Shown in pieces: positions 4,173 through 47,400 of a stretch of DNA of 64,000 nucleotides; within the stretch, counting starts at the first letter, position 1; every line of letters starts with the position of its first letter. A model generated the notes under the pieces. The model saw nothing but the letters and a program-made list of their open reading frames with translations, did no database searches and was not told the origin of the DNA. The stretch lies in the IMG/VR virus record IMGVR_UViG_3300046820_001896; one strand, given 5' to 3'. A program made the position numbers and the translations under genes. The DNA is from a virus. Lineage: Duplodnaviria; Heunggongvirae; Uroviricota; Caudoviricetes.

Positions 4173-4200
4173 GTACAGCAGGATATTTTTGTGGTATAAT
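4173..4200 (+). promoter_or_regulatory. sigma70-like early promoter of the catgtaca...tgtggtataat family
   Basis: tgtaca at 4173-4178, 16-nt spacer, tgtggtataat with tataat at 4195-4200. The flanking aaagtactacatgtaca is identical to that at 1301-1317. Confidence 0.6.
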
Positions 4201-4224
4201 ATAACCTATACTTAAGGAATAATA

Positions 4225-7315: not shown

Positions 7316-7346
7316 TATAAATACAGATATCTAAAAGGATATCTGT
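7316..7346 (+). promoter_or_regulatory. T4-type late promoter motif TATAAATA (7316-7323) followed by perfect 9-bp inverted repeat acagatatc/gatatctgt that covers the RBS
   Basis: TATAAATA, then hairpin 7323-7346 with a 6-nt loop containing aaagg, then ATG at 7347. Confidence 0.5.
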
Positions 7347-7673
7347 ATGCCAGGAATTGCTAGAGTTGGTGTTGACAAAGCCGGTGGAGTAGTCACCGGT
7401 AATTTAGCTCCCACAGTTTTCGTAAATGGTTCACCTATCGTAGTGATAGGTGCAACTATTGCAGGTCACGGACTTGCTCCTCACGCTTCTCCAACTATGG
7501 TTGAAGGAGCTGTTGACGTGTTTGCGAATGGTATAGGTATATGTAGAACTGGCGATTTGGCATCGTGCGGTCATGCTATTTCAGGTTCAGATAATGTATT
7601 AACAGGATTTTACCCAAATCCGGGACCTACACGATTTGGTATTTCGAAATTTGGTGTGGAGAAACAAGGATAA
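7347..7673 (+). CDS. PAAR-repeat spike-tip protein (gp5.4-like)
   Basis: Repeated ...GSP.V.I.G...A..GD.....C..GH...GS..V. motifs typical of PAAR domains. Confidence 0.75.
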   Translation: MPGIARVGVDKAGGVVTGNLAPTVFVNGSPIVVIGATIAGHGLAPHASPTMVEGAVDVFANGIGICRTGDLASCGHAISGSDNVLTGFYPNPGPTRFGISKFGVEKQG

Positions 7674-7674
7674 T

Positions 7675-8094
7675 ATGGCATTAAAATATGCAGATAACGT
7701 TGGATCACAATTATTTGATCCTATTGGAGAAACAGATACTTTTGTAGTAGTAGAATCTGTTACATCATTTCCAGCAAATATATCACCAACTGATTTTGCT
7801 GTAGCAACTATTGCTAACGATGATAATAGTTTAACAGAATCGATTAAAATTACTTTTATTGATCGTCCTACTAGAACATTGACAATAGAACGAGGATACG
7901 ATGATTCGACACCGCGCAATTGGCCAAAAGGATCTAAATTAGAAATTCGTATTTCATCTGGTTTTTTCAGAGCATTTGAAGAACAGGTAAATACATATAC
8001 CGACGATGCAATTTCTGCATTAGAAACTTCATCGAATACAACAACAGAAGCTAAATCTAAAGCAGCATTTGCAGTTGCTTTTGTATTAAGCTAA
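7675..8094 (+). CDS. hypothetical protein
   Basis: ATG 7675 has RBS aaggataat. The listed ORF start 7636 is an upstream extension. Confidence 0.5.
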   Translation: MALKYADNVGSQLFDPIGETDTFVVVESVTSFPANISPTDFAVATIANDDNSLTESIKITFIDRPTRTLTIERGYDDSTPRNWPKGSKLEIRISSGFFRAFEEQVNTYTDDAISALETSSNTTTEAKSKAAFAVAFVLS

Positions 8095-8103: not shown

Positions 8104-8733
8104 ATGTCTTTTGATTTTGAATTTACGCAAGAAAAACTTGCACACGTTATTCCTAACGCAAAGTATGGAGTAGAAACATGGCACAAAGAATTGGTAGAAC
8201 TTTTACCAGTTTTTGAAATTACTACAGTTGGTCGTGTTGCTGCATTTGTTGCGCAAACTGCTCATGAATCTGGTGGTTATACAGCACTAAAAGAAAACTT
8301 AAACTATAGTGCTGAAGGTTTGCATAAACTATGGCCAAATCGTTTCCCAACGGTTGAGTCAGCTATGCCTTATAATCGTAATCCGCAAGCTATCGCTAAT
8401 AAAGTTTACTCATCACGTATGGGTAACGGAGATGAACATAGCGGTGAAGGTTGGTTGTATTGCGGTCGTGGTCTACTACAATTGACTGGTAAAGCAAACT
8501 ATTCTGCATTCGCACAATACGCAGGTATGTCAGTAGAAGATGCACCTGAATATATCGAATCTCCACGCGGTGCTGTACACTCAGCATGTTGGTTCTGGTA
8601 TTCAAATGACTTGAATACATACGCAGATGCTGGTGATTTCACTGGTATGACTAAGCGTATCAATGGTGGTACAATCGGTTTAGACGATCGTATCAAACAT
8701 TATAATCACGCTGTAGAGATTTTCTCAGCGTAA
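8104..8733 (+). CDS. glycoside hydrolase family 19 endolysin (resembles Acinetobacter-phage endolysins such as LysAB2)
   Basis: AAFVAQTAHESGG ... NLNYSA ... GRGLLQLTGKANY ... ACWFW ... RINGG motif series, as in GH19 phage lysins. Confidence 0.75.
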   Translation: MSFDFEFTQEKLAHVIPNAKYGVETWHKELVELLPVFEITTVGRVAAFVAQTAHESGGYTALKENLNYSAEGLHKLWPNRFPTVESAMPYNRNPQAIANKVYSSRMGNGDEHSGEGWLYCGRGLLQLTGKANYSAFAQYAGMSVEDAPEYIESPRGAVHSACWFWYSNDLNTYADAGDFTGMTKRINGGTIGLDDRIKHYNHAVEIFSA

Positions 8734-9058: not shown

Positions 9059-9085
9059 AAAGGGGACGAAAGTCCCCTTTTTTTA
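9059..9085. terminator. bidirectional rho-independent terminator
   Basis: aggggac-gaaa-gtcccct followed by TTTTTT on the plus strand. It separates convergent plus and minus gene blocks. Confidence 0.75.
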
Positions 9086-31177: not shown

Positions 31178-31627
31178 TTAACTTACCTTTGGTGGTACTG
31201 CAATAACTGGTGGTGGTTTTGCCACCGCTGGTGCAGCCACTGATGGTACAGCTACAGATGGTACAGACACTGATGGTGCTGGAACTGCAGGTGTTACTGA
31301 TGGAGTTACTGGAGTTGGAACTGCTGCACCACCATTATTAGCACCACCTAATTTTTCTTGTGTACGACCATAAGCTGCGATACCAAGGATTGCACCCATA
31401 GCCATATGGAAAAGTCCTGCGCCTTGTAAAGTAATAGGCGACCATTGTGTTTCAACTTTTCCACCACCAATAACTTGAACTAAAGACCAAAGAATAGGGA
31501 ATAAAACAAAGTCGGCTGTACAAACAACCATGTACATCCATCCCATCATTGGACGCCATTTGCTGTTCATCCAATCTTCTTTTTTCTTTTCGCTTTCGCT
31601 CATTTGTGGTTTGACTTCTTCTGTCAT
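31178..31627 (-). CDS. membrane protein with Pro/Val/Ala-rich C-terminal tail
   Basis: Three hydrophobic helices followed by a PSVSVPSVAVPSVAAPAV low-complexity tail. Confidence 0.5.
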   Translation of the reverse strand: MTEEVKPQMSESEKKKEDWMNSKWRPMMGWMYMVVCTADFVLFPILWSLVQVIGGGKVETQWSPITLQGAGLFHMAMGAILGIAAYGRTQEKLGGANNGGAAVPTPVTPSVTPAVPAPSVSVPSVAVPSVAAPAVAKPPPVIAVPPKVS

Positions 31628-33820: not shown

Positions 33821-34264
33821 TTATGTAAGTAATCTGATGCCCATGGATTTAATTGTGTCTTCAGTCCAAATAACAAATTGCCAATTACGGTCATTTGCGT
33901 AGTCTGTAGCAGCTTTCCATTTGCATTGATTTTTAACGAATGTTCTAGCTTCCTCTAAATACTTTTTGGTTTGTCTAGAAGGTTTCTTTGGAGGTAGTGT
34001 TTGAGACTTTGGTTTAATCTCTACTAGGAATGTGCCTTGGGCAGTAGTGTACTTGACATCAACAAAGTATCGATGCCATTTTTTATCTAGTGGGAGATAA
34101 TAAGGCACAACTATCTCCTCAGAACTCCATTTAAGGACCTGATCATTTGAGTCGCACCATCGAAATACTTGCATCTCCCAATGGGATCTGTAGACGACAT
34201 TCTTAAAATCGCCATCATATTTCGCAGGGTTCTTCACCCTATAAAAACCTTTGTAAGTTGCCAT
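33821..34264 (-). CDS. gp4-like head completion protein with PD-(D/E)xK-like motif
   Basis: FVDV ... EIKPK motif. It is divergent from the baseplate wedge operon, as T4 gene 4 is from gene 53. Confidence 0.45.
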   Translation of the reverse strand: MATYKGFYRVKNPAKYDGDFKNVVYRSHWEMQVFRWCDSNDQVLKWSSEEIVVPYYLPLDKKWHRYFVDVKYTTAQGTFLVEIKPKSQTLPPKKPSRQTKKYLEEARTFVKNQCKWKAATDYANDRNWQFVIWTEDTIKSMGIRLLT

Positions 34265-34271
34265 ATAAATA
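34264..34271 (+). promoter_or_regulatory. T4-type late promoter motif TATAAATA
   Basis: Exact TATAAATA lying 34 nt upstream of ATG 34305 in a divergent intergenic region. Confidence 0.5.
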
Positions 34272-34304: not shown

Positions 34305-35204
34305 ATGGCAATTCTTACAGATCTAGTTGGCAGTGTAAAGTCAACAATTACTAAAATTTTAGGTGTCGACCTATTCACAAATCCATTTGGAGCTCAGGTA
34401 AGTTACCGATATCCTCTTGGAGACGTGGCAAAATATGAGAACGTTATTAAGTTTTCAGCTTTAGCTCGTGTGAAGAAAAGCAGTGTAGTAGATGTGCGAG
34501 TTCCTAAGCTAGCTGAAAAGCCATTAGGAAGTGTTACACTATACATGCCAGCTGGTGTTTCAGTTAATGATAACTTATCATACGATAATGCTGATACAGG
34601 TCTTGGCGGTATGGCACTTAATGCAGCAGGTTCATCAGCAAACCCTGGTGAATTTATTGATAAAGTAAAAGAAAACGCTAAACCACTTGCTCAAACAGCA
34701 GTTATTGCTGGTCTAAGCAGATTATCCCAAGAAAAAGGTTTAGGCGGTGCAGCTCAACAAGCACAAATTAATGCTGGTGTTGTTGCTAACCCTCACACTC
34801 AAATGTTGTTTAAGACTCCTGCGCTTAGACAGTTTACATATAGTTTTAAGATGATCCCTCGTTCACAAGCAGAAGCTCGTGAAATTATTAAGATTGTACA
34901 ATTTTTCCGTATTGCTGCATATCCAGAACTTGGTGGCGGTGGTGGTGATACTAGTGGAGAAGGTACTCTTGAAATGGCAACGTTCAAGTTCCCAGATATT
35001 TTCGAAATCACTTATTTAAATAGAGGTGTTGAAAACGAAAATATGATTGCTGTTATGAATTCATATCTTACTTCTGTTACTGTAACATATAACACAAATA
35101 GTCCAACATTCCATAAAGATGGTATGCCAGCTGAAGTTGATTTACAGCTTACATTCCAAGAATCTAAAGCACTCAACAGAGCGCTTATCAAAAAAGGTTA
35201 CTAA
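34305..35204 (+). CDS. baseplate structural protein (first gene of late baseplate operon)
   Basis: RBS tagggtatct precedes the ATG. Assignment rests on position at the head of the baseplate operon. Confidence 0.5.
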   Translation: MAILTDLVGSVKSTITKILGVDLFTNPFGAQVSYRYPLGDVAKYENVIKFSALARVKKSSVVDVRVPKLAEKPLGSVTLYMPAGVSVNDNLSYDNADTGLGGMALNAAGSSANPGEFIDKVKENAKPLAQTAVIAGLSRLSQEKGLGGAAQQAQINAGVVANPHTQMLFKTPALRQFTYSFKMIPRSQAEAREIIKIVQFFRIAAYPELGGGGGDTSGEGTLEMATFKFPDIFEITYLNRGVENENMIAVMNSYLTSVTVTYNTNSPTFHKDGMPAEVDLQLTFQESKALNRALIKKGY

Positions 35205-35205
35205 A

Positions 35206-35922
35206 ATGTCAGTGTATTTCCAAGGTTTTCCTACAATTCAATATGACGTCGATGATGATAGACACTTCATCGAAGTCACTGATATTTTTAGAACTGTTAG
35301 ACCAAAGCAATCATTAAAAGATGATCTGTTATTGTATAGCAAATATACAATTAAAGACGGAGAACGTCCAGATCATGTTTCGCAAAAGCTTTATGGTTCT
35401 ATTGATTATTATTGGACATTCTTTATGGTTAACGAGAAGTTAGTTAACTACCACACAGATTGGCCATTATCACGTCAAGAATTAGAAGATCATATTGCAT
35501 TGAAATATGATGGATATGCACTAACAGTTGATAGCGACATATCTACTTTATTCACTAAAAATGAAACAATCCAAGGTTTAGTATCTGGTGCAACTGCAAC
35601 AATAACTCAAAAAGATTGCAATACAGATACTATTCGAATACTTAATGTAGTTGGTCAATTTAGAGCTAATGAATTAATTAGAGGATTGACAAGCAACGAT
35701 ACAGTTCAAATTACGGGTCAAATTCCATTCTATGATGCAACTCATCATTATGAAGGACCGAATTCTACAATTACAGATAAAGCTCATGGAATTCCAATAA
35801 CAAATTCAGAATACGAATTCAACTTGAATGAAGAAAAAACTGAAATTAAAGTTATTCGACCACAATACATAATGCGTGTATCTGAGCAATTCTTCCAACA
35901 AATTAATCCGACAGCAGAATAA
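35206..35922 (+). CDS. hypothetical structural protein
   Basis: ATG follows 1 nt after the upstream stop. The listed ORF 35119 is an upstream extension. Confidence 0.45.
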   Translation: MSVYFQGFPTIQYDVDDDRHFIEVTDIFRTVRPKQSLKDDLLLYSKYTIKDGERPDHVSQKLYGSIDYYWTFFMVNEKLVNYHTDWPLSRQELEDHIALKYDGYALTVDSDISTLFTKNETIQGLVSGATATITQKDCNTDTIRILNVVGQFRANELIRGLTSNDTVQITGQIPFYDATHHYEGPNSTITDKAHGIPITNSEYEFNLNEEKTEIKVIRPQYIMRVSEQFFQQINPTAE

Positions 35923-37181
35923 TGGCAGCATTAGGTAAATTAGACTATTCGATAGATGAAGCAACACTGACTTCGTCTACTGGTGAAGTATTCAAATTTA
36001 AAGATTTGATTAGTGGTATAGACATATATGAATCATTATTATCTCCATATATTAAAGTGGATTTAACAATTGGTGATGCCGCAAACTTATTTGAAACTGC
36101 TCCAATTATTGGACAAGAAAAAGTTGAATTGACTATCACTGAAGGTCCACATAAAATTACTAGAACATTTTATGTTGCTGGTATGTCAAACTTTATCAAA
36201 GGCAATAATCAAGCCACAATGTATGTGTTGAAATTGATTACGCCTGAACAAATGATGAATAGTTTGTTATTGGTTTCGCAATCATTTAGCGGTACTATCG
36301 ATCAATCTATCGAACAAATTGTAAAAGATTATTTAAAAAGTAAAATTGCCAATAAAGAACAATCTGCTGGTAATTACAGCGTTGTCATTCCAAATTGGAA
36401 TCCATTTCAAGCTATCGATTGGTTAGCTCGTAGAGCAATGACTGCAAAGAAAATGCCATTTGCTTTTTATGAAACATGGAAAGATGGTTTTCAGTTTGAA
36501 TCATATGAATCTATGTTCAAAAAGAAAGTGTACAATAAATTTGTTCATAAAGGTGGTACAACTGCAGAGAGTGATGCTGAAAACCAAGCTGCATCATATA
36601 ACGTTGCATTTGAATATGATTTAGCAGACTATGCTAATACGCATAAAAATACATTACGTGGAACGTTTGGTTCTGGTATGTGGGTAATTGATATTGCAAC
36701 TAAGACATATAAGTTTGTTCAATATAATTATGAAAAAGATTTTGATAAAAAAGATCATTTAGATAAAAAAGCTTTCGTTAACCCAGATTTTAAAGTAAAT
36801 GGTAAAAAAATATCTGAATACGATTCTATTCATCATGTAGTTAATAAAAATACAAAAGCATTTGGTGAAAAAGCTACTAATAATTATAACAATGAAGCAG
36901 AATACACAAAACTTGAAGGCGATCCATTCATTTATCAACTAACATTAAACAAAATGAACTTAGCTGTTCGTGGAAGATGTGATTTAAGCCCAGGTAAGAT
37001 TATTGATTTTGCTGTAGATAGAGCTAAACCTTCTGTATATGGTAATACTAAAGATGAGAACGAATATATTTCTGGCAAGTATCTTGTATTAAATACTCAC
37101 CACAAATTAGCATCTGGTAAATTTGTAACTATTTTTGATGCTGTTCGTGATTCTCTTGGTAAGAAAGTGAAAAAAGCATAA
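35922..37181 (+). CDS. baseplate hub protein (gp27-like)
   Basis: Immediately upstream of, and translationally coupled to, the gp5-like spike gene. Confidence 0.45.
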   Translation: MAALGKLDYSIDEATLTSSTGEVFKFKDLISGIDIYESLLSPYIKVDLTIGDAANLFETAPIIGQEKVELTITEGPHKITRTFYVAGMSNFIKGNNQATMYVLKLITPEQMMNSLLLVSQSFSGTIDQSIEQIVKDYLKSKIANKEQSAGNYSVVIPNWNPFQAIDWLARRAMTAKKMPFAFYETWKDGFQFESYESMFKKKVYNKFVHKGGTTAESDAENQAASYNVAFEYDLADYANTHKNTLRGTFGSGMWVIDIATKTYKFVQYNYEKDFDKKDHLDKKAFVNPDFKVNGKKISEYDSIHHVVNKNTKAFGEKATNNYNNEAEYTKLEGDPFIYQLTLNKMNLAVRGRCDLSPGKIIDFAVDRAKPSVYGNTKDENEYISGKYLVLNTHHKLASGKFVTIFDAVRDSLGKKVKKA

Positions 37182-38422
37182 TGAAAAACTATATGAATTG
37201 GTGGACTGGTGTTGTAGAAGATCGCGCAGATCCACAAGAATTGGGTCGTGTGCGTGTTCGTATTTTTGGACATCATACCGATGATATTGATAAAATTAAA
37301 TTAGGTGATTTGCCATGGGCTCATGTGATGATGCCTACTACATCTGCATCTATTTCAGGTTTAGGTTGGTCACCGACAGGTTTAGTTGAAGGTTCATGGG
37401 TTGTTGGTTTCTTCGCTGACGGAGAAAATTGCCAAGATCCTATTGTGTTAGGTTCTATTCATGGATATCCAACTCAACCAGGTGAAGAGAAAAAAGCTTT
37501 TAAGGATTACACAGGTGCATATCCTCGTTGGTTAAATGACACCGATGTATCATATACTGCGCGTGGAAAATGGAAAGAACACCAATCGTATTTTGCAAGA
37601 TATGGTGAAATGGTTAAAGGCATTGAGCAATCAACAAAGCCCACATTAAAAACTGTTGATGCTGATGCAACTGATGAAGCACGTCAAACTTGGGATGAAC
37701 CAGAACCAAGACGTGGAGTTCCAGGAGCATATCCGTTTATTCATACTTACGAATCTGAATCTGGAATTGTCAGAGAAATAGATGATACTAATGCTGCTTC
37801 GCGTATTACTGAATATCATCCAGCTGGCACATTTTATGAAATTTTACCAGATGGCGATAAAGTAACTAAAGTTTCAGGTGATAATTATGAAATTATTATT
37901 GCATCTGATAATATTTTAGTTCGTGGCACTAGAACAACTACTATTGAAGGTGATTGTCGTCATCTTGTAAAAGGTGATTACATCGTCGAAGTAATGGGCG
38001 ATTATAATTTAAAAGTGCATGGTAATAGAAATACTAAAGTTACTTTAAATGATAATATGGAAGTAGTAGGTAATTATAACTTAAACGTTGCTGAAGATTT
38101 TTTAACACGTGTTGGTAAAAACCAAACATTATTAATTGACGTTGATAAAACTGAAAGTATTGGTGGAAAATCTACATTAACTGTAACTGGTACAGTTGAT
38201 TTGGTGCTTTTAGATACGTATAGTATGTTCTCTAATGGAGCACAACAAATATCAACAAATTCTACACAACAATTTTTATCAAAAGATGGATTAAATATTG
38301 GATCTGAAGCTGCAACAGTTGTTAAGTGTAATTCAAATATGACTTATGAAGTTTCTGGAACATTCAATATTAATGCTGGTCCAACATTCCAAGTTTTAGC
38401 AGATAAGATAGAGTTGAACTAA
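37181..38422 (+). CDS. baseplate central spike (T4 gp5-like OB-fold N-terminus plus beta-helix, no lysozyme domain)
   Basis: WWTGVVEDRADPQELGRVRVRIFG ... DLPWAHVMMPTTSASISGLG ... GLVEGSWVVGFF matches T4 gp5 NWFVGVVED...GRVRVRVHG...DLPWMSV..P.TSAAMSGIG. The C-terminus carries VxGxxxxxV repeats. Confidence 0.85.
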   Translation: MKNYMNWWTGVVEDRADPQELGRVRVRIFGHHTDDIDKIKLGDLPWAHVMMPTTSASISGLGWSPTGLVEGSWVVGFFADGENCQDPIVLGSIHGYPTQPGEEKKAFKDYTGAYPRWLNDTDVSYTARGKWKEHQSYFARYGEMVKGIEQSTKPTLKTVDADATDEARQTWDEPEPRRGVPGAYPFIHTYESESGIVREIDDTNAASRITEYHPAGTFYEILPDGDKVTKVSGDNYEIIIASDNILVRGTRTTTIEGDCRHLVKGDYIVEVMGDYNLKVHGNRNTKVTLNDNMEVVGNYNLNVAEDFLTRVGKNQTLLIDVDKTESIGGKSTLTVTGTVDLVLLDTYSMFSNGAQQISTNSTQQFLSKDGLNIGSEAATVVKCNSNMTYEVSGTFNINAGPTFQVLADKIELN

Positions 38423-38423
38423 T

Positions 38424-39713
38424 ATGACAAATAAAGTTTGTGGTGTAAATGCCGCTTTAGATGAAGCAAAAGCAGGAATTAATTCTTTAAAAGATAAAAT
38501 TTCTGGTGGATTAGACTCGATTGGAGATTTAGGTGGTTTAGCAACTACTATTAAAAATAAACTTGCTGAGGTAAATGTACCTCAACTTCCAACAATAAAT
38601 CTTCAAGCAGAATTAGCTAATTTACCTAAATTAACTCCTGAAGAATATGCAGCCAAAGTAGCTGAATTAAAAAAAGCTTTTGGAGATGCAGTTCCAAATT
38701 TAGATAATATTATTTCTAAAATTCCTAAACCAGCAGGCGTGGATGGAGTTGGCCAAAAAGATATTTTTGCAGATTTAAAAGCTTTAGCTGGTGATGTTGG
38801 TGCTGCTGTTAGAAAGGCACAAGAAGAACTCGCAAACTTAAGCATTGATTCTGTTGTTGCTGATGTATGTAAAGAAGTACCAAACGTAGAAGTAGTTACT
38901 ACTACTGAAACTGTTAAAATTGCTGATCCAAAAACTGGTAAAGAAACTAAAGTTGAAGTTCCTGTAACATCTCCACCAGTTGAAAAAGCAAAACCACCTA
39001 CAACACCAAAAGAAAATCCTAAAAAAGAAATACCACCTTCAGAACCTCCTGCAAAAGGTTTTACTTTTAATTTTACAAGAGAAAAATTAATTGCTGCAGG
39101 TGGAAAAGAAGCAGGACCATGGTATGATGCTATGGTAGAAATGTTGCCAAAATATAACATCACAACTCCTGAAAGAGTTGCCGCATTTATTGGTAACGTA
39201 AGAGCTGAATCTACATGGACTAAGTTGTCTGAAAATTTAAATTATGGAGCTAAGTACTTATTTGAAAGATTAAATCCTGGACGTATTCGTTTTCCAACTT
39301 ATGAGGATGCTGTTAAAGTAGAAAGAAAACCAGAACCTATTGCTAACATAATTTATATGGTTGGTCGTAAATTGCTAGATCCACAACCAGGTGATGGTTG
39401 GAAATTTAGAGGGCGTGGATTGATTGGTTTAACCTTTAAAGATGAATATTTAAGAGCTTCTAAAGCAATCTATAATGATGATAGATTGGTACAAAATCCA
39501 GATTTAGTTGCAACTGATAGAACTACAGCAATCTTAACTGCATGTTATTTCTTTAAACGCAATAATATGAATCCATGGGCAGATAAACAAGATTGGGGAA
39601 ATTGTAGAAGTATCGTTAATGCTGGTTCTCCTGGTAAAGATCCTAAAATTATTCACGGATATGAGTCTGGAGTAAAATTTCAACAAGATGCATATAACGT
39701 TCTGAAAGGTTAA
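38424..39713 (+). CDS. baseplate-associated peptidoglycan hydrolase: helical N-terminus, Pro/Lys linker, C-terminal GH19-like lysozyme domain
   Basis: AAFIGNVRAESTW ... NLNYGA ... GRGLIGLT ... ACYFF pattern parallels the endolysin at 8104. Confidence 0.65.
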   Translation: MTNKVCGVNAALDEAKAGINSLKDKISGGLDSIGDLGGLATTIKNKLAEVNVPQLPTINLQAELANLPKLTPEEYAAKVAELKKAFGDAVPNLDNIISKIPKPAGVDGVGQKDIFADLKALAGDVGAAVRKAQEELANLSIDSVVADVCKEVPNVEVVTTTETVKIADPKTGKETKVEVPVTSPPVEKAKPPTTPKENPKKEIPPSEPPAKGFTFNFTREKLIAAGGKEAGPWYDAMVEMLPKYNITTPERVAAFIGNVRAESTWTKLSENLNYGAKYLFERLNPGRIRFPTYEDAVKVERKPEPIANIIYMVGRKLLDPQPGDGWKFRGRGLIGLTFKDEYLRASKAIYNDDRLVQNPDLVATDRTTAILTACYFFKRNNMNPWADKQDWGNCRSIVNAGSPGKDPKIIHGYESGVKFQQDAYNVLKG

Positions 39714-39724: not shown

Positions 39725-40162
39725 ATGCGTACACAACATCCATCAGATTTATTAACACCAAAAGCTTCTATCGTAGCAAAAAGTTATGTTCACACTGATT
39801 TAGATTTGACTTTTACACCAAATCCAGTCACTGGCGATATTAATGCTATTAAAGATATTGAAGCTATTAAGCGTTCTGTTAAAAACTTAATCTTAACTAA
39901 CTTCCAAGAGCGTCCATTTCAACCTGAAATAGGTTCTGGAGTGCGTGGATTGCTATTTGAATTAGCAGATCCAATTACGATGCATGATATTAAGCAAGCA
40001 ATTGCTCGTACTATTAAAAACTTTGAACCAAGAGTTAACTTGATTGATGTATCGGTAAACGATGATTTTGATAATAATTCATATAATGTCGACATAACAT
40101 TTCAAATTATTGCTAATGAATTAATTGGCAATGCAACAATCATACTAGAGAGATTACGATAA
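39725..40162 (+). CDS. gp25-like baseplate wedge protein (GPW/gp25 family)
   Basis: ERPFQPEIGSGVRGLLFE motif. Confidence 0.75.
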   Translation: MRTQHPSDLLTPKASIVAKSYVHTDLDLTFTPNPVTGDINAIKDIEAIKRSVKNLILTNFQERPFQPEIGSGVRGLLFELADPITMHDIKQAIARTIKNFEPRVNLIDVSVNDDFDNNSYNVDITFQIIANELIGNATIILERLR

Positions 40163-42090
40163 TGGCATCTAACCTAAGAGTTACTGAGTTAGATTTTTTC
40201 CAAATTAGAGAAAACTTCAAAACTTATCTAAAAGCTCAACAAGATAAAGGTAAATTCACCGACTATGACTTCGACGGGTCAGGTATGTCTGTGCTTTTAG
40301 ATATTTTAGCATATAATACTCACTACAATGCGGTGAATGCTAATATGGCACTTAATGAAGTGTTCTTAGATACTGCAGAACGTCGCAATAACGTTGTTTC
40401 TCTAGCTAAAATGATTAGTTATGTACCTCGTTCTGTTACAGCACCATTTTCATCAGTTGATATTGTAGTAAATTCTCCAACTGGTGCACCGGTATCATTA
40501 ACGTTAGATCGTGGTACAGTTTTTAATACTACTATTGATGATCAACAATATACGTTTGTTAATTTAGAAGGCATCACAATTACACCACAAGACGAAGTTA
40601 TTACCACAATTAGTGGTCAACAAACTTTGACTACTACGAACTATAACGTTTATCGTTTCCCAGAAGTAAAATTATACGAAGGCACTTTAACTAATATTGA
40701 ATATACTGTTGATTCATTTGATGAAGGATTCTATTTCCAAATTCCAGATGAAAAAGCTGATATCACAACTTTAGTAGTTAAAGTAAAAGCAAATTCTGCT
40801 TCAACAAGACAAGAAGTGTTTACACTGGCAACAGATTTTACTACTATTCGTGAAGACACAGCAGCATATTTCTTACAAGAAGGTCTTGATGGAAAATTTG
40901 AAGTATATTTTGGCGATGGTGTTACTGGTAAAGCATTAGAAGGCGGTAACGTAGTAACTTTAGAATGGTTAAGCACTAATGGTATTGCTGCAAATGGTGC
41001 TTCGGTATTCGTTTTAGCTGATACGATTTCAGGCAATTCAGATGTTGATGTTGCAACAATTAATAAAGCAACTGGCGGTGCTGAAAGAGAAGATCTAGCA
41101 TCTATCAAATTTAATGCTCCTTTATCATATTTGGCACAAAATAGAGTTGTTACAGCTGAAGACTATAAGTCAATGGTTGCTAATAACTATGGTGATGTTG
41201 AAACAGTAACTGTTTGGGGTGGTGAAGAGAATGATCCACCACAATATGGTAAAGCATATATCTGTATCAAACCTAAAACAGCGGCTGCGTTAAATGATGT
41301 TGAGAAAAAATTCATTATTGATAATATTTTAAGAACAAAAAATGTGGTTTCTATCACTCCAGTATTAGTAGATCCGCAATATACGTATTTGTTTTTCAAT
41401 GTTAATTTTAAATATAATCCAAACTTAACAGATTCGACTTCTGGACAATTAAAAACGATCGTAAATGACGTAATTGTCAATTATAATAACACAGATTTGA
41501 AAAAATTCGATGGAGTTTTCCGTCATTCTAAGATGACTCGTTTAATTGACTCGTCCGACGCTGGTATTTTAAGTTCTTCTGTGCGAGTATTCATGCAAAA
41601 GCGCTTACAACCTACTTTGGACGTGAAAAAACGCTATGAAATGCAATTTTCAGCTCCAATTGTGGGCGCAAGAAGCAATCCAAATGAACCTATCTTAAAA
41701 TCTAGCGGTTTTACACACAATGGAGTAACACAATACATCGAAGATCGTGTTTTATTAGCGGGAGAAGTAAATTCTCATGCTGATGAGAATGCAACGCATG
41801 TTTTACAAATGTATCGTATAGTAAACAACCAAAAAGTCATTTCAAACTCAGATGTTGGTTATATTAACGCTGATACAGGTTTAGTTGTATTAACTGGATT
41901 ACAGATTTCAGCTGTGCCAAACACATTTGTTAATTTTACAGCTATCCCAGCTTCTGATGATATTGCTCCTAAGCGTGAACAATTATTAGAAATTGATATT
42001 GCTCTTTGTACTGTAACTCCTACAATTGATACTATCGCAGTTGGTAGTTCAAATGCTGGTATCGGTTATACAACTACTAAGCGTAACTAA
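40162..42090 (+). CDS. gp6-like baseplate wedge protein (Baseplate_J family)
   Basis: 642 aa. N-terminal LRVTELDFFQIRENFKTYL ... SVLLDILAYNTHY resembles the J-like fold. Confidence 0.7.
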   Translation: MASNLRVTELDFFQIRENFKTYLKAQQDKGKFTDYDFDGSGMSVLLDILAYNTHYNAVNANMALNEVFLDTAERRNNVVSLAKMISYVPRSVTAPFSSVDIVVNSPTGAPVSLTLDRGTVFNTTIDDQQYTFVNLEGITITPQDEVITTISGQQTLTTTNYNVYRFPEVKLYEGTLTNIEYTVDSFDEGFYFQIPDEKADITTLVVKVKANSASTRQEVFTLATDFTTIREDTAAYFLQEGLDGKFEVYFGDGVTGKALEGGNVVTLEWLSTNGIAANGASVFVLADTISGNSDVDVATINKATGGAEREDLASIKFNAPLSYLAQNRVVTAEDYKSMVANNYGDVETVTVWGGEENDPPQYGKAYICIKPKTAAALNDVEKKFIIDNILRTKNVVSITPVLVDPQYTYLFFNVNFKYNPNLTDSTSGQLKTIVNDVIVNYNNTDLKKFDGVFRHSKMTRLIDSSDAGILSSSVRVFMQKRLQPTLDVKKRYEMQFSAPIVGARSNPNEPILKSSGFTHNGVTQYIEDRVLLAGEVNSHADENATHVLQMYRIVNNQKVISNSDVGYINADTGLVVLTGLQISAVPNTFVNFTAIPASDDIAPKREQLLEIDIALCTVTPTIDTIAVGSSNAGIGYTTTKRN

Positions 42091-42104: not shown

Positions 42105-43028
42105 ATGGCTGACGTCACTAAAAGAATAAGTCCATCGAATCCAAAGTTTTATTCTTTGGATTCAATTTTACCTGAGCACTTAAAAGAAAATACAAAATTT
42201 ACACAATTTTTACAAGAGTATTTTAATTGGATGCAACTTGATGAGACTTCACCGGTCTCAGTCATCAATACACTTGATAAATTTCGTGATGCAGATTTAA
42301 TTAATGAAAATTTTCTAAAGTATTTAGAGCGTGAACTTGCAATTTCTATTCCTGGTAATTTACCAAATACTGACAAGCGAAAACTTTATAAACAAGTAAA
42401 CGACATCTATCGAGCTAAAGGTTCAATTCCTTCGTTCGAAGCATTGTTCAATTTGTTATACGGCGATGATATTGAACTATATTATCCTCGTATTGACCTG
42501 ATGAAGTTATCTGATGGTAATTGGAGCGAAGATGAAAATCGTTATTTGAATAAAGGTAGCTTTTTATCTGATTATAACTACATTCAAGACAGTTATTACT
42601 ATCAAGATTATTCATATGTTATTAAAACAAGAAAACCATATGAACAATGGCAAGCTGCAGTTAGAAAAATGCTACATCCTTCTGGATTTGCATTATTTGG
42701 TAGAGTAACTATTGTAAGTCAAGCCACTGTTAAAAGATTGAAGTCACCAAAACTTCAACCTGGAAGTAGATTTACAAGTTATGACAGAGTAATTCCAATC
42801 AGATTAGCTGTTGTAAAAGCAACTACTACTGTTGTTGAGATAGATTCATTCTTAGAAACGACATACTTTTCAGTTGGTGCAAAATTTGGGCCATCTTTCA
42901 GTTTATTAGACAAAATTAAGTTTATCATCGATCAACCAATCAATGCTTATATGCAATTTACATTGAAGGATGCTAGAGATGGTAATGGATTCAACGTATT
43001 ACCAGGTTCTGTAATAACGGTATCCTGA
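42105..43028 (+). CDS. baseplate wedge protein (P2 gpI-like)
   Basis: It follows the J-like gene, and KGSIPSFEALFNLLYG resembles the tail protein I motif. Confidence 0.4.
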   Translation: MADVTKRISPSNPKFYSLDSILPEHLKENTKFTQFLQEYFNWMQLDETSPVSVINTLDKFRDADLINENFLKYLERELAISIPGNLPNTDKRKLYKQVNDIYRAKGSIPSFEALFNLLYGDDIELYYPRIDLMKLSDGNWSEDENRYLNKGSFLSDYNYIQDSYYYQDYSYVIKTRKPYEQWQAAVRKMLHPSGFALFGRVTIVSQATVKRLKSPKLQPGSRFTSYDRVIPIRLAVVKATTTVVEIDSFLETTYFSVGAKFGPSFSLLDKIKFIIDQPINAYMQFTLKDARDGNGFNVLPGSVITVS

Positions 43029-43065: not shown

Positions 43066-44394
43066 ATGTCAGCAATCATCACTACAAAATTTCGTTATCA
43101 AACTGCCGTAAATCTCATCAACGCGATGGGTGGCAATGGTTCTCAAGCCGACGACAAATATTACTTATTCATTGGTCGCACAGAAGAATGGCAAGATGAC
43201 GATAATCCTCCATTACCTGAAGACAGCGTAAGTCAAGAAAATGACGCACGCTTTAATATGCTTTCGCTAAAGCTTATTACTGCACCTAAGATTAGTCACG
43301 TTATTCCACGTTACAACTGGACTTCTGGTCAAACATACACAGAATTTGATGATCAAGATGAAGCTTTAACTACTAAACGTTTCTATGTTTACACTGAAGA
43401 TGATTTAAGCGTTTATAAGTGTATTAAAGCTGGTGCTGGTGCATCAGTTGTCAAACCTAGTGGAACAGATTTAACTATTGGTAATGTATTGTCTGATGGA
43501 TATCAATGGAAATATATGTTCACGTTGACTGGTTCAGCGATTGGAACATTTACTACTTCTCAGTTTATCCCTGTTAAAACTCTTGCTACAGACGATCTAA
43601 CTTATCAATGGGATGTACAACAAGCAGCTATTCCTGGTGCTATTTGGAGAATCAAAGTTACTAATGGCGGTACAGGTTATCAATCAAAGCCAACTGTAAC
43701 AATTGAAGGTAACGGTACAGGTTGTGTTGTACAAGCTGATGACATCACGCTAACTGGTGGTGTTATTACACAAATTTTAGTAAAAGCTGCGAATGTTGGT
43801 CAAGATTATTCACAAGCAAAAGTTGTATTCACAGGCGGTGGTCCAACTTCAACAGCTTCAGCACGTGCAATCATTACACCTAATGGTGGTCATGGTTCAG
43901 ATCCTATCCAAGAACTTGGCGGATATTATGCTATGATTACATCTACTTTAGCTGGTGATGAAGGTACAGGAGACTTTATTATTGATAATGGTTTCCGTCA
44001 AATTGGCATCTTGCGCAATCCTATAGATACTGCTACAGATGAAATTGGCGAAGCTACTACTTACTTAGCATGTACAAAGTTAGAATACTCTAATTTAGTT
44101 GGTGGTACATTTGCAGTAGGTGATACTGTGATTGGTGCAACATCTGGAGCAGAAGCAATTATTGATTCAGTTGGTACTGGATTTATTTTAGTACACCAGA
44201 ATATTGGTACAGGATTTACTGCATTTACTGCAACAGAATCTATTGAAGTTGGTTCAGTAAGCGCAACGTTAGACACAATTACAGAACCAGAAATCGATTT
44301 AAATAGCGGTGAAGTATTGTATATTGAAAACATTTCTCCTGTTACTCGTAACGAAAACCAAACAGAAGATATTAAATTAGTTTTAGAGCTATAA
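43066..44394 (+). CDS. tail/baseplate structural protein
   Basis: RBS taaggacataaa. The central portion is beta-rich and Gly/Thr-rich. Confidence 0.5.
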   Translation: MSAIITTKFRYQTAVNLINAMGGNGSQADDKYYLFIGRTEEWQDDDNPPLPEDSVSQENDARFNMLSLKLITAPKISHVIPRYNWTSGQTYTEFDDQDEALTTKRFYVYTEDDLSVYKCIKAGAGASVVKPSGTDLTIGNVLSDGYQWKYMFTLTGSAIGTFTTSQFIPVKTLATDDLTYQWDVQQAAIPGAIWRIKVTNGGTGYQSKPTVTIEGNGTGCVVQADDITLTGGVITQILVKAANVGQDYSQAKVVFTGGGPTSTASARAIITPNGGHGSDPIQELGGYYAMITSTLAGDEGTGDFIIDNGFRQIGILRNPIDTATDEIGEATTYLACTKLEYSNLVGGTFAVGDTVIGATSGAEAIIDSVGTGFILVHQNIGTGFTAFTATESIEVGSVSATLDTITEPEIDLNSGEVLYIENISPVTRNENQTEDIKLVLEL

Positions 44395-44409: not shown

Positions 44410-47400
44410 ATGTCACTGAAGATTTTTTCACAAGCTCCTTACAACGATGACTACGATGAAACGAAGAAATATCTTCGTATGTTGTTTCGTCCAGGAGTTT
44501 CATTACAGGTACGAGAGTTAAATCAGCTACAAACTTATCTGCAAACTCAAATTCAGCGTTTAGGTTTACATTTATTTAAAGAAGGCTCAATGGTCATTCC
44601 AGGTCAAACTGCGATTGACACAAAAATTGTATATTTAAAAATTCAACCTGAAACAAACGGCGTTGAAATTAGTACTATTCTTGCAGATTTGGTTGGTAAG
44701 ACTATTACCGGTGCTAGCGGTGTACAAGCTCAGGTTCTTACATACGCTGCAGAAGAAGATACAGATCCTATTACATTATTCGTGCGTTATGTTGCATCTT
44801 CTGATGATGAAGAAACAAAAACATTTTCTGCCGAAGAATTATTAACTACTACTATCGATAGTGAAGAATACACATTACAAATTCTTCCATCGACTGATAC
44901 TCCAGTTGGTTTTGGTTCTATTGCATCTATCGAAGCTGGTGTTTATTTTATTAAGAGTCAATTTGTACAAGTTGATTCTGCTACAATCATTCTTTCTAAA
45001 TATAGCAATACACCGACATATCGAGTTGGTTTATTGGCAACAGAAAACATTGTAACATCTAATTCTGATGCTTCACTAAATGACAACGCCAATGGTTCTC
45101 CAAATGAGAATGCTCCTGGTGCTCATCGTTACCAATTATTATTAACATTTGCAAAATTAGCAGTTGATTCAGAATTAGACGAAAACTTTATTGAATTACT
45201 TCGTATTGAAAATGGTGAACTAAAGAGTAAAGTAGAAACATCTACATATTCTGAACTTGCTAAAACATTAGCACGTCGTACATTTGACGAATCTGGTAAC
45301 TATACAGTTCGTCCATTCAAATTAGCAATTCGCGAACATCGTAATAACGATCGCGGGCAATGGCAAGCATTTACTGAATATCGTTTAGGTGACATTGTAA
45401 AGAGCGGTGATAATTATTTCACAGCTATGGAAACTGCTACGTCTGGTAGTATCGAACCAGCTACTACTTTCTCTGAAACAAATCCATATCAAATCTATTC
45501 AGATAATAACATGGATTGGAACTATACTCCACGACCATCGTTTAATCGTGGTTACAAAACACCAGAAAACGGTGGTTCAGAATCTTCATTTGCAGTTGCT
45601 ATTGAACCTGGTAAAGGTTATGTACAAGGTTATGAAATCGAGAAGATTGCTACTGAATTCTTAGAAGTTCCTAAGTCAAGAGAATTTGCACGCATTGATA
45701 GTGATTCAATCGATATCAAGTACGGAAACTATGTTTATGTTTCTAACGTACGTGGTGTACCTGATTGCACAACATATCCAACAATCACTTTATACGATCA
45801 ATTAACTCCATCAACAAATTCTCAAGCTTCTGGTGCAGGTAATGCGATTGGTACCGCTCGTCTTCGTGCATTCGAATATGATTCAGGTACTCCTGGTGCA
45901 TCTGCAGTTTATAAAGCATATTTGTTCGACCTTCAAATGGAAGCTGGTTATACATTTGAACGTGATGTTAAACAATTCTTTTATGATTCAGGAACAACAT
46001 TAAGCAACTTCGTTGCAGATGTTTCACAAATTTATACTACATTAAGCGGTACAGTTAGCGGATCATCTACAACTGTTACAGGCGTTGGTACAAAGTTTAC
46101 AACTGAATTAAAAGTTGGAGATTATATTCGTGTTGAAGATTCTGCTGGAGCATTAGAAGTTCGCAGAGTTACTTCAATCACAAATAACACAACACTTGCT
46201 ATTGCTTCTGCTTTTAGCGGTACAGTTACTGGTAAAACATTTCAACGTGTGATGACACAAGTGCAAGATCCAAGTTTCACTGGATTGATTTTCCCTCTTG
46301 CACAATCATTTATTCGCAAAGTTCGTGGTGGTGAAAATGATGCTACATTTGCAACATCATACACAACTACACAAAAATTCACAGGTTCTACTTCATCAGG
46401 TCAATCAACACTGACAATTTCAGTTGGTGCTGCATCTGGTGCAACAACTCTTGGTACAGAATTTAATCCTTCAGCAAATAAAAATGAATTCGTTGTAATT
46501 AATAGATCAACTGGACGTCCAGTTAATCCAACTGCAATTAATTTATTAAATAATGGCGCGGATGCACAAATTACTGGTTTAAGTCAATCTTCTTCATATA
46601 CTGTATTTGCTCCAGTTCGTAAAGCTGGCACAATTGCACAAGAAAAGAAGAAAACACTTGTAAGCAATGCAGTAAAAGACTTCACTTCTATTGGTGCAGT
46701 TCAACCATTAACATTGTCTCTTGGTAAAGCTGACGGCTATCGCATTGTTGCTATTCGCATGAAGAATAGCGGATTCACTGCATCATCTAATCCAACTGAA
46801 ACTACTGATATTACTGATTGGTACACATTTGATAATGGTCAACGTGAAACACACTATGATGTAGCTACAATCACACGTAAACCTGGATATCCAGTTCCAA
46901 AGGGTGCTGTTCGTGTAATTTTTGATTATTTCGATCACACAGCTGGTACTGCCGGTGACTACTTTACAGTAGACTCATATTCAGATATTCCATTTGAAAA
47001 TATTCCATACTTCACGCCTGCTGGTGGCATGATTGCTCTTGCTGATGTTATGGATTTCCGTCCACGTATTAATGATGTTGGTACAGGTTATAGTAGCACA
47101 GGTGCTTCTCCATCAGAGTTGCCAAAACTTGGATTTGAAACAATTGCAAGTTACTCACACTATCTTGCACGTCGCGATAAATTAGCATTAGATATCGAAG
47201 GCAGATTCTTTACAATTTCTGGTGTAGCAAGTACTGCTCCGCAAGAACCAAAAGATCCAGCTCTTGGAATGATGTTAGCTAAGTTAAATGTTTCTCCATA
47301 CACAGCTTTCCCAAGCGATGGTTCTGTTACAATTGAAACTATCGATACTAAACGTTACACAATGCGTGATATCGGTAAGTTAGATAAGCGTATCGAAAAC

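What the first reader, a model, noticed from the sequence alone, without database searches (positions are those of the whole stretch)
37181..39713. Spike without lysozyme domain plus separately encoded baseplate GH19 lysin; second GH19 enzyme as endolysin
The gp5-like spike has only an OB-fold and a beta-helix. The next gene fuses a helical N-terminus and a Pro/Lys-rich linker to a GH19-type lysozyme domain. That domain shares the motif series of the stand-alone 209-aa GH19 endolysin at 8104-8733. The phage therefore carries two diverged copies of one catalytic fold, one virion-associated for entry and one for lysis. In T4 the virion lysozyme is part of gp5 itself.
Basis: partly seen in the sequence, partly recalled or inferred. 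Interest (0 to 1): 0.55.

Follow-up and report, generated by a model that had tools for sequence, protein, structure and literature searches.

The report
Separate tail lysin beside lysozyme-less spike
An uncultured T4-like phage has a tail spike with no built-in lysozyme and instead encodes, in the next gene, a helical "carrier" tethered to a GH19 cell-wall hydrolase, plus a second stand-alone GH19 that is probably the lysis enzyme. This is a new modular version of a known strategy, not a new principle.

Summary

- **Spike:** 37181-38422 encodes a gp5 spike with an OB domain and a beta-helix. The ~225-residue lysozyme insert of T4-type gp5 is missing.
- **Tail lysin:** 38424-39713 encodes a 429-aa protein with three parts: a helical N-domain (1-155), a Pro/Lys/Thr-rich linker (156-212) and a GH19 muramidase-type domain (213-429).
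- **Second GH19:** 8104-8733 encodes a 209-aa globular GH19 that is 39% identical to that domain. Both keep the two catalytic Glu.

New here:
- The N-domain defines a widespread metagenomic family. Its hallmark is CysGly near residue 5, NLQxE, and Cys-x3-PNxE.
- The family sits in one slot, between a lysozyme-less gp5 and gp25.
- Its C-terminal cargo is interchangeable: GH19, lytic transglycosylase, GH24, VanY/M15, the lysin domain found inside phiM9-type gp5, or none.

The best explanation is therefore a hub- or spike-associated entry lysin plus a separate endolysin. This mirrors the T4 gp5/e pair, but uses GH19 and a detachable carrier.

Virion association and enzyme activity are inferred, not shown. 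Two caveats apply. The window's copy has Gly where 57 of 59 relatives have an active-site Gln. The "endolysin" shares a late-promoter unit with the PAAR gene.

Verdict: a new variant of a known kind, of moderate interest.

The parts
34264..34271 (+). T4-type late-promoter motif TATAAATA in the short gap before gp48. It is the likely start of the baseplate transcription unit that contains the spike and tail-lysin genes.
   Evidence: The total count of 8 equals chance, but at least six of the eight sites lie in short gaps directly upstream of genes. Function is inferred.
35922..37181 (+). Hub protein candidate (gp27 position), 419 aa.
   Evidence: phrog_350 'tail protein', E 2.8e-79. No Pfam or PDB sequence match. 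Conserved in this position in all relatives. The gp27 identity is inferred from position only.
37181..37615 (+). gp5 spike, N-terminal OB domain (aa 1-145).
   Evidence: PF06714 at 91.5 bits. Aligns to residues 6-167 of RB49-type gp5 and to T4 gp5 structures.
37703..38422 (+). gp5 spike, triple-beta-helix region (aa 175 to the end). It follows the OB domain and a short linker directly, with no lysozyme insert.
   Evidence: PF22178 and PF06715. phrog_27932 positions 524-738. Aligns to residues 393-571 of RB49-type gp5.
38424..38888 (+). Tail lysin, helical N-terminal 'carrier' domain (aa 1-155), with invariant C6-G7 and C149-x3-P153-N154.
   Evidence: Helices over residues 8-149. Invariant residues. 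A profile search found 97 cluster representatives. No fold analogue.
38889..39059 (+). Tail lysin, Pro/Lys/Thr/Glu-rich flexible linker (aa 156-212).
   Evidence: pLDDT is about 50. Composition is given. The C149-to-F215 distance ranges from 48 to 183 residues across 59 relatives.
39060..39713 (+). Tail lysin, GH19 muramidase-type domain (aa 213-429 plus stop codon). E262, E270, Y311, T337 and N399 are kept. A261 and G335 replace the His and Gln of canonical endolysins.
39725..40162 (+). gp25 baseplate wedge protein, which closes the conserved slot.
   Evidence: PF04965 at 53.3 bits.
8104..8733 (+). Stand-alone globular GH19 (209 aa), the probable endolysin. The canonical active site is intact: H54, E55, E64, Q126 and T128.
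   Evidence: It is 86% identical in a relative whose tail lysin is only 49% identical.
7347..7673 (+). PAAR spike-tip protein. It is encoded away from the baseplate module, in the same unit as the stand-alone GH19.
   Evidence: PF05488 at 28.9 bits. The order PAAR, ~140-aa protein, GH19, 77-aa protein is conserved in L012 and L013.
7316..7323 (+). TATAAATA late-promoter motif directly before the PAAR gene.
   Evidence: Function is inferred.
9059..9080 (.). Bidirectional terminator-like hairpin that ends the unit holding PAAR, the 140-aa protein, the GH19 and the 77-aa protein.
   Evidence: 9-bp stem with 5 GC pairs and T runs on both strands.

Best explanation
The phage belongs to an uncultured lineage of T4-like myoviruses. 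Its closest isolates are Methylophilales phage Melnitz and Pelagibacter phages HTVC008M and Mosig, at about 40% identity in gp6.

Its central spike, gp5, is reduced to an OB domain and a beta-helix. The cell-wall hydrolase that T4 carries inside gp5 is supplied instead by the next gene.

Proposed mechanism:
- The conserved helical N-domain of the 429-aa protein docks it to the gp27/gp5 hub during baseplate assembly.
- The 57-residue flexible Pro/Lys/Thr-rich linker tethers a GH19 muramidase domain.
- After sheath contraction drives the spike through the outer membrane, the tethered enzyme cuts peptidoglycan locally so that the tail tube can pass.
- The 209-aa globular GH19 at 8104-8733 is the cytoplasmic endolysin, released at the end of infection.

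Shown by computation: domain architecture, GH19 fold, retained catalytic Glu, gene order, conservation of the slot, and exchange of the catalytic module.

Inferred: presence in the virion, docking to the hub, enzymatic activity, and the division of labour between the two GH19 enzymes.
For: **Architecture and fold.**

**Operon context.** The gene lies in a baseplate operon ordered gp48, gp53, hub protein, gp5, lysin, gp25, gp6, gp7-like, gp8. It starts 1 nt after the gp5 stop codon.

**Not the tape measure.** The tape-measure protein is a different gene, 29434-31176.

**Family size and conservation.**
- About 85 clusters at 90% identity have the full-length architecture.
- E262, E270, Y274, G330-R331-G332 and T337 are invariant in 59 sequences.

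**Conserved slot.** Gene order is identical in relatives at 41-62% identity.

**Module swaps.**
- P0090, P0091 and P0092 keep the N-domain, and P0091 is confirmed in the same slot. Their C-terminal domain is a lytic transglycosylase (PDB 9udh, E 1.3e-36).
- The N-domain profile finds 97 representatives. Their cargo includes Phage_lysozyme, VanY, phrog_894 and a tape-measure-type lysin.
- P0247's cargo matches the central domain of phiM9-type gp5 (E 4e-33), and its gene lies between gp5 and PAAR/gp25.
- P0237 has no recognisable lysin but sits beside a separate M15 peptidase gene in the same slot.

**Related isolates place a lysin elsewhere in the spike apparatus.**
- Milchi has a PAAR-M15 fusion.
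- Melnitz has a gp5 OB domain joined to a VanY-like domain.

**Different evolutionary rates.** In one relative the tail lysin is 49% identical, while gp27, gp25, PAAR and the endolysin are 81-86% identical. That fits an enzyme exposed to the host envelope versus a conserved endolysin.

**The 209-aa protein looks like a canonical endolysin.** It is a single domain with a canonical active site and is closest to characterised endolysins.
Against: - No proteomic or structural evidence places the 429-aa protein in a virion, and no cultured phage carries it. Four tblastn searches of 50,697 phage records (the full 429-aa protein, its N-domain alone, and distant members P0237 and P0242) found no match to the N-domain.
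- The N-domain model has low confidence (pLDDT 50-79 outside residues 60-105) and no structural analogue. The docking mode is therefore unknown.
- The window's copy has G335 where 57 of 59 relatives and canonical endolysins have Gln (Q127 of PaGH19Lys). The His before the first Glu is lost across the whole family. Activity may be reduced.
- The stand-alone GH19 lies in a late unit with PAAR and a tail-fibre-like protein, not beside a recognisable holin.
- Only 64 kb of a genome of at least 119 kb was seen.
Confidence: 0.65

Rival explanations
1. The 429-aa protein is in the virion but is not bound to the spike. It lies in the tail-tube lumen or hub cavity with the tape-measure protein and is ejected ahead of the DNA. 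This resembles lysin-bearing tape-measure proteins or podovirus internal proteins.
For: The N-domain is elongated and helical with weak tape-measure and minor-tail-like hits (PhageMin_Tail at E 0.0098 in P0090). One family member's cargo matches a lysin segment of a tape-measure protein (phrog_16823). The lytic transglycosylase cargo also matches a cyanophage internal protein, 9k2v_E.
Against: A separate 580-aa tape-measure homologue exists. The gene is linked to gp5, not to the tape-measure or gp26 cluster on the other strand. P0247's cargo matches a domain that sits inside gp5 in phiM9-type phages.
Confidence: 0.15
2. The 429-aa protein is a modular endolysin, or a second lysis enzyme, that is not incorporated into virions. 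Its position in the baseplate operon only provides late expression.
For: PHROGs files it under phrog_181 'endolysin'. GH19 domains are typical endolysin domains.
Against: Many N-domain family members have no lysin at all (P0237, P0242), so the N-domain's role is not lysis. The slot between gp5 and gp25 is conserved across deep divergence. A canonical globular endolysin is present as well. The protein evolves faster than all its neighbours.
Confidence: 0.1
3. Both GH19 proteins are virion cargo. The 209-aa enzyme travels with the PAAR tip, and the true endolysin lies in the unsequenced part of the genome.
For: PAAR, a tail-fibre-like 140-aa protein and the GH19 form one late unit, which is conserved in relatives. 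Pseudomonas phage Milchi fuses PAAR to an M15 peptidase. No recognisable holin lies next to the gene.
Against: The 209-aa protein has no anchoring domain and an intact canonical active site. It is closest to biochemically characterised endolysins. It is highly conserved (86%), unlike the tail lysin. Two small single-pass membrane proteins lie just upstream. No other lysin of six tested types occurs in the window.
Confidence: 0.08
4. In this particular phage the tail GH19 is catalytically impaired by the Q335G change. It acts mainly as a peptidoglycan-binding or structural module.
For: G335 occurs in only 2 of 59 family members, at the position of active-site Q127 of PaGH19Lys.
Against: Both catalytic Glu, Y311, T337 and N399 are kept. 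The identical sequence was recovered in two other sequencing runs. The rest of the domain shows no decay.
Confidence: 0.1

Closest known systems
Phage T4 gp5 tail lysozyme plus T4 lysozyme (gene e)
   Same: One phage carries two diverged copies of one muralytic fold. One copy is on the cell-puncturing spike for entry and the other is a soluble endolysin. The OB and beta-helix parts of gp5 are homologous. That T4 gp5 and e are paralogs is established knowledge, recalled rather than tested here.
   Different: The fold here is GH19, not GH24. The entry enzyme is a separate polypeptide with its own helical N-domain and a long flexible linker, not an insert in gp5 released by proteolytic maturation.
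Split or rearranged gp5 of Sinorhizobium phage phiM9 and Rhizobium phage P10VF
   Same: These are T4-superfamily phages in which the gp5 modules are distributed differently (PMC4621102). The phiM9 beta-helix protein contains a central lysin-type domain homologous to the cargo of carrier-family member P0247 (E 4e-33).
   Different: In phiM9 the lysin domain is covalently part of the beta-helix protein. The conserved CysGly...Cys-x3-PNxE carrier domain was not detected there with confidence.
Pseudomonas phage Milchi/Astolliot baseplate module
   Same: The gene order is the same: gp48, gp53, hub protein, lysozyme-less gp5, helical protein, lysin, gp25, gp6.
   Different: The lysin is an M15 peptidase fused to PAAR, not a GH19 fused to the helical protein. 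Similarity between the helical proteins is marginal.
Hub-borne hydrolases of other myophages, e.g. Anabaena phage A-1(L) gp15 and phiKZ gp181/gp144
   Same: Muralytic domains sit on baseplate hub or tail proteins other than a T4-type gp5 (A-1(L): PMC10966104). The phiKZ pair of a virion lysin and an endolysin with related domains is recalled from memory and was not checked here.
   Different: The carrier proteins and catalytic folds differ. No sequence relationship to the N-domain was found.
T6SS spike effectors (evolved VgrG/PAAR; TseP with a GH19-like lysozyme domain, PDB 8xcl)
   Same: Interchangeable cell-wall-degrading cargo is delivered on a gp5/VgrG-type spike. The GH19 fold matches TseP.
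   Different: This is a bacterial secretion system rather than a phage. Attachment there is through VgrG/PAAR fusions or adaptors, not this N-domain.

Membership tests
GH19, endolysin (muramidase) subfamily: tail protein aa 213-429 | Sequence match to PF00182 above the gathering score, and to solved GH19 endolysins | tested here: met
   29.7 bits against a 25.5 cut-off. 8p8e at E 2.8e-18, 4ok7 at 4.7e-17, 9eoi at 1.7e-15.
GH19, endolysin (muramidase) subfamily: tail protein aa 213-429 | Two-lobed alpha-helical GH19 fold | tested here: met
   AF2 pLDDT is about 90 over residues 213-429. Foldseek target TM-scores are 0.76-0.84 to 8p8e, 4ok7, 9eoi and 9ms6.
GH19, endolysin (muramidase) subfamily: tail protein aa 213-429 | Two catalytic glutamates (E51 and E60 of PaGH19Lys) | tested here: met
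   E262 and E270 align to them and are invariant in 59 relatives. The spacing is one residue shorter than in endolysins.
GH19, endolysin (muramidase) subfamily: tail protein aa 213-429 | Remaining active-site residues (H50, Y103, Q127, T129, N188 of PaGH19Lys) | tested here: inconclusive
   Y311, T337 and N399 are kept. His is replaced by A261 (Val/Thr/Ala family-wide). Gln is replaced by G335 in the window and one relative only; 57 of 59 have Gln.
GH19, endolysin (muramidase) subfamily: tail protein aa 213-429 | Hydrolysis of the MurNAc-GlcNAc bond of peptidoglycan | not testable with these tools
   Needs recombinant enzyme and a peptidoglycan digest.
GH19 endolysin: 209-aa protein at 8104-8733 | GH19 match, catalytic Glu pair and full active-site set | tested here: met
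   PF00182 at 29.0 bits. 9eoi at E 1.2e-47. H54, E55, E64, Q126 and T128 are present.
GH19 endolysin: 209-aa protein at 8104-8733 | Genetic linkage to a holin or spanins (lysis cassette) | tested here: inconclusive
   Two small single-pass membrane proteins (6642-7043 and 7040-7315) lie upstream but match no family. PAAR and a tail-fibre-like gene lie in between. The only holin-family hit, PF11351, is at 31178-31627.
T4 gp5-type central spike | N-terminal OB domain and C-terminal triple beta-helix | tested here: met
   PF06714 at 91.5 bits, PF22178 at 38.3 bits, PF06715 at 25.7 bits. T4 gp5 structures match at E about 2e-43.
T4 gp5-type central spike | Lysozyme (GH24) domain between the OB domain and the beta-helix | tested here: not met
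   No lysozyme family hit. Residues 168-392 of RB49-type gp5 have no counterpart. No GH24-like ORF occurs in the window.
Virion-associated lysin (VAL) | Peptidoglycan hydrolase domain in a protein encoded within the tail or baseplate gene module | tested here: met
   Gene order is conserved in relatives.
Virion-associated lysin (VAL) | Physical presence in the mature virion | not testable with these tools
   No cultured member: tblastn searches of 50,697 phage records found no match to the N-domain.
T4 gp5.1 (PF26906), the gene that follows gp5 in T4-type phages | Sequence or profile similarity to gp5.1 | tested here: not met
   BLASTP found nothing. hhalign of the N-domain profile against a gp5.1 alignment gave probability 0.3%.

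The most novel reading that the evidence does not exclude
The CysGly...NLQxE...Cys-x3-PNxE helical N-domain defines a previously undescribed and widespread accessory component of the hub or spike in aquatic T4-like phages. It would act as a cargo adaptor that loads interchangeable cell-wall hydrolases onto a lysozyme-less gp5 spike: GH19, lytic transglycosylase, GH24, M15/VanY, or none. This would be the phage counterpart of modular T6SS spike effectors. Linker length (48-183 residues) would be tuned to the host envelope.
Probability: 0.45. Interest if true: 0.6.

Novelty: new variant of a known kind. Interest (0 to 1): 0.4.

Why it matters
Annotation pipelines label the spike gene of many environmental T4-like phages "baseplate hub subunit and tail lysozyme" although it has no lysozyme. 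They label the neighbouring gene "chitinase" or "endolysin".

This analysis suggests where the entry enzyme of one abundant uncultured lineage really is. It also shows that the enzyme sits on a conserved carrier with exchangeable catalytic modules.

If confirmed, three things follow:
- A new structural component would be added to the T4-type baseplate.
- It would give a marker gene for entry-enzyme diversity, and possibly host envelope type, in metagenomes.
- It would supply natural pairs of fast-evolving (tail) and conserved (endolysin) GH19 muramidases for enzyme engineering.

The underlying principle is already established: virion-associated lysins are modular, and a phage may hold an entry copy and a lysis copy of one fold.

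Tried and rejected
- **Near-identical DNA in 50,697 phage records:** none.
- **tblastn of the full 429-aa protein, its N-domain, or distant members P0237 and P0242 against phage isolates:** no match to the N-domain. No virion proteomics can therefore be borrowed.
- **The 429-aa protein as the tape-measure protein:** rejected. A separate tape-measure homologue lies at 29434-31176.
- **Homology of the N-domain to T4-type gp5.1 or to the 166-aa post-gp5 protein of Vibrio phage D479:** rejected.
- **Homology to the Milchi 231-aa helical protein:** marginal only.
- **Recent duplication of GH19 within this genome:** not supported. The tail domain is about equally distant (36-40%) from the lineage's own endolysins and from unrelated GH19 endolysins. 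The endolysin is closer to those (41-49%) than to the tail copy.
- **A third lysin in the window:** none found among GH19, lytic transglycosylase, M15, VanY, GH24 and phiM9-type queries.
- **Lipoprotein reading of 7040-7315 (LGGC motif):** judged unlikely because the hydrophobic helix continues past the Cys (read by eye).
- **Late-promoter motif count:** not above chance for the window as a whole. Only the placement of the sites is suggestive.

Full report
**What is at the locus.** The + strand from 34305 to about 44400 carries a T4-type baseplate operon. Its genes, in order, are:
- gp48 tail-tube cap (34305-35204)
- gp53 (35206-35922)
- a 419-aa hub candidate, phrog_350 (35922-37181)
- gp5 (37181-38422)
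- a 429-aa protein (38424-39713)
- gp25 (39725-40162)
- gp6 (40162-42090)
- a gp7-like wedge protein (42105-43028)
- gp8 (43066-44394)

On the other strand, just upstream, lie head-completion protein, DNA end protector, tail tube, a gp26-like hub protein and a 580-aa tape-measure homologue at 29434-31176. The 429-aa protein is therefore not the tape measure.

No phage isolate shares DNA with this region. By gp6 the closest isolates are Methylophilales phage Melnitz (42%) and Pelagibacter phages HTVC008M and Mosig (about 40%), followed by cyanophages. The identical 429-aa protein occurs on other metagenomic contigs.

**The observation.**

*The spike.* It matches Gp5_OB at 91.5 bits and the gp5 beta-helix families, with no lysozyme family. 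It matches T4 gp5 structures at E about 2e-43 in two stretches. Against an RB49-type gp5, window residues 3-174 align to 6-167 and the very next residues, 175-353, align to 393-571. The ~225-residue lysozyme segment is simply absent.

*The next gene.* It starts one base after the gp5 stop codon. AlphaFold predicts helices over residues 8-149, a low-confidence region, and a confident domain over 213-429. Residues 156-212 hold 12 Pro, 10 Lys, 9 Thr and 8 Glu in 57 residues. The C-terminal domain superposes on solved GH19 phage endolysins with TM 0.76-0.84. It matches them by sequence at E 1e-15 to 1e-18 and passes the Pfam GH19 threshold.

*The second GH19.* The 209-aa protein at 8104-8733 is a canonical globular GH19 (9eoi at E 1.2e-47). 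It is 39% identical to the tail domain over 205 residues, E 1e-35.

**Catalytic residues.** PaGH19Lys (9EOI) is a proven muramidase. Its active site comprises H50, E51, E60, Y103, Q127, T129, I187, N188 and R197. The E60Q variant is nearly inactive and an E51V mutant fails to lyse (PMC12329726).
- The 209-aa protein keeps H54, E55, E64, Q126 and T128.
- The tail protein keeps E262, E270, Y311, T337 and N399.
- E262, E270, Y274, Y311, G330-R331-G332, T337 and N399 are invariant in 59 relatives.

Two departures stand out. The His before the first Glu is Val, Thr or Ala throughout the tail family. The window's copy, with one relative, has Gly335 where the other 57 sequences have the active-site Gln. 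An attenuated enzyme in this particular phage still cannot be excluded.

**Comparative evidence for a baseplate role.** A search of 5.8 billion proteins found about 85 clusters at 90% identity with the same full-length architecture. All are metagenomic.

Relatives at 41%, 49% and 62% identity have exactly the same gene order: gp53, hub protein, lysozyme-less gp5, this gene, gp25, gp6.

Three variants (P0090, P0091, P0092) keep the N-domain but replace the GH19. Their C-terminal domain matches a solved lytic transglycosylase (9udh, E 1.3e-36), the C-terminus of a "baseplate hub" PHROG, and an internal protein of a cyanopodovirus. P0091 lies in the same slot.

A profile of the N-domain, run against 1.84 billion representatives, found 97 proteins. 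In 78 of them, aligned together, a CysGly near residue 5 and a second Cys are at least 90% conserved. A curated N-domain alignment adds a nearly invariant LQ of the NLQxE motif and PN after the second Cys.

Their C-terminal parts vary:
- nothing recognisable (most of them)
- Phage_lysozyme (GH24)
- VanY
- GH19
- phrog_894 endolysin
- a tape-measure-type lysin segment
- in P0247 and P0299, the central segment of phrog_27932 "baseplate hub subunit and tail lysozyme"

P0247's cargo aligns to the phiM9 beta-helix-bearing gp5 protein at E 4e-33. Its gene lies between a lysozyme-less gp5 and PAAR/gp25. P0237 carries no lysin but has a separate M15 peptidase gene beside it in the same slot.

So the same muralytic domains occur either inside gp5 or on this carrier. 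The carrier's position next to gp5 survives deep divergence. This is the strongest available argument that the protein works with the spike.

**Related isolates show the same theme with other solutions.**
- Pseudomonas phage Milchi has a lysozyme-less gp5, then a 231-aa helical protein, then a PAAR-M15 peptidase fusion, then gp25.
- Melnitz joins a VanY-like domain to the gp5 OB domain and encodes the beta-helix separately.
- phiM9 splits gp5 (PMC4621102).
- HTVC008M, Mosig and ACP17 have short gp5 proteins with no adjacent lysin gene annotated.
- The pelagimyophage metagenome study noted divergent gp5 clusters but assumed that gp5 itself degrades the wall. Searches for "chitinase", "endolysin", "lysin" and "peptidoglycan" in that paper found no mention of a separate tail lysin (PMC7029224).

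**Evolutionary behaviour.** This comparison uses loci L012 and L014, which probably derive from one 169,842-bp contig. The link rests on matching contig lengths, so it is an inference.

| Protein | Identity to the window (%) |
|---|---|
| endolysin | 86 |
| gp25 | 83 |
| gp27-like | 82 |
| PAAR | 81 |
| gp6 | 70 |
| gp5 | 69 |
| tail lysin | 49 |

Within the tail-lysin family the linker is the least conserved part. The distance from Cys149 to the start of the GH19 domain ranges from 48 to 183 residues.

The tail GH19 is about equally distant (36-40%) from the lineage's endolysins and from unrelated GH19 endolysins. The endolysin is closer to the latter (41-49%) than to the tail copy. The two are diverged members of one subfamily, with no sign of a recent duplication in this genome.

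**The stand-alone GH19 and its neighbours.** A TATAAATA motif at 7316 precedes PAAR (7347-7673). Next come a 140-aa protein resembling tail-fibre N-termini (7672-8094), the GH19 (8104-8733) and a 77-aa secreted Pro/Lys-rich protein. A bidirectional terminator follows at 9059-9080. This order is conserved in relatives.

Two small single-pass membrane proteins lie just upstream and match no family. The only holin-family hit in the window is a 149-aa protein next to the tape-measure gene (PF11351 at 32 bits).

The endolysin assignment therefore rests on three things: the protein's canonical single-domain nature, its high conservation, and the absence of another lysin in the window. It does not rest on a clear lysis cassette. 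A minority reading, that this enzyme travels with PAAR, is kept as a rival.

**Mechanism proposed.**

*Inferred steps:*
1. The N-domain binds the gp27/gp5 hub during assembly.
2. The flexible linker lets the GH19 domain reach the peptidoglycan after the spike has crossed the outer membrane.
3. Local digestion lets the tube advance.
4. The 209-aa enzyme lyses the cell at the end of infection.

*Shown:* architecture, fold, catalytic residues, gene order, and module exchange.

*Unknown:* where the N-domain sits, and the role of the two invariant Cys. No structural analogue was found. The N-domain is not related to T4 gp5.1.

**Comparison with the known, and verdict.** The functional logic matches T4 (gp5 lysozyme plus gene e) and the general concept of virion-associated lysins (PMC6116005). 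Hub-borne hydrolases are also known in other myophages (PMC10966104).

Three things differ:
- the catalytic family is GH19
- the enzyme is a separate polypeptide
- a conserved carrier domain with exchangeable cargo occupies a fixed slot after gp5, in a lineage with no cultured member

I rate this a new variant of a known kind, with interest 0.4. My confidence in the entry-lysin plus endolysin reading is about 0.65.

Noticed in passing
window 31178-31627 (- strand): A 149-aa protein lies between the tape-measure gene and the gp26-like hub gene. It matches PF11351 'GTA_holin_3TM' (32 bits against a 24.8 cut-off) and a holin PHROG. It has two hydrophobic helices and a Pro/Val/Ala-rich tail. It could be the phage's holin, or a membrane-active tail protein mislabelled by family name.
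   Followed up: partly
window 7316, 12835/12839, 34264, 43032, 59648, 62351: The T4 late-promoter motif TATAAATA occurs only as often as chance predicts (8 hits against 7.8 expected). Yet at least six of the eight sites lie in short intergenic gaps directly before genes (PAAR, gp48, gp8 and others). This suggests T4-like late transcription units.
   Followed up: partly
window 7347-7673: The PAAR spike-tip gene is not in the baseplate module. It lies 30 kb away, co-oriented and tightly packed with a tail-fibre-like 140-aa gene and the stand-alone GH19. In a more distant relative (L015) PAAR directly follows the carrier-lysin gene.
   Followed up: partly
window 39426-39428 (codon 335 of the 429-aa protein): This codon gives Gly where 57 of 59 relatives have the active-site Gln. 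Only one relative, P0005 at 76% identity, shares the Gly. The change needs two nucleotide substitutions, so it is unlikely to be a sequencing error.
   Followed up: partly
window 38439-38444 and 38868-38885 (Cys6-Gly7; Cys149-x3-Pro-Asn): Two cysteines are invariant across the curated N-domain alignments and at least 90% conserved in the broader 78-member set. Possible roles are metal binding in a trimer, a disulfide, or a processing site. There is no signal peptide, so the first Cys is not a lipobox Cys.
   Followed up: no
window 6642-7043 and 7040-7315: Two overlapping genes encode small proteins with one N-terminal transmembrane helix each. They match no family but are conserved upstream of PAAR in relative L013. 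They are candidates for holin, antiholin or spanin-like roles.
   Followed up: partly
window 44410-50766: A 2118-aa protein (phrog_358; relatives carry DUF4815) follows gp8. It corresponds to the giant VrlC-like structural protein described for pelagimyophages.
   Followed up: no
window 52524-53957: A radical SAM protein (phrog_1802, E 1e-63) is encoded just after a tail-fibre-like gene (51004-52095).
   Followed up: no
L007 (Melnitz) 3962-5002: The Melnitz 'OB domain protein' combines a gp5 OB domain with a weak VanY-like peptidase match (22.4 bits, just below the cut-off). The beta-helix is a separate 667-aa gene followed by PAAR. This is another way of arranging the entry enzyme.
   Followed up: partly
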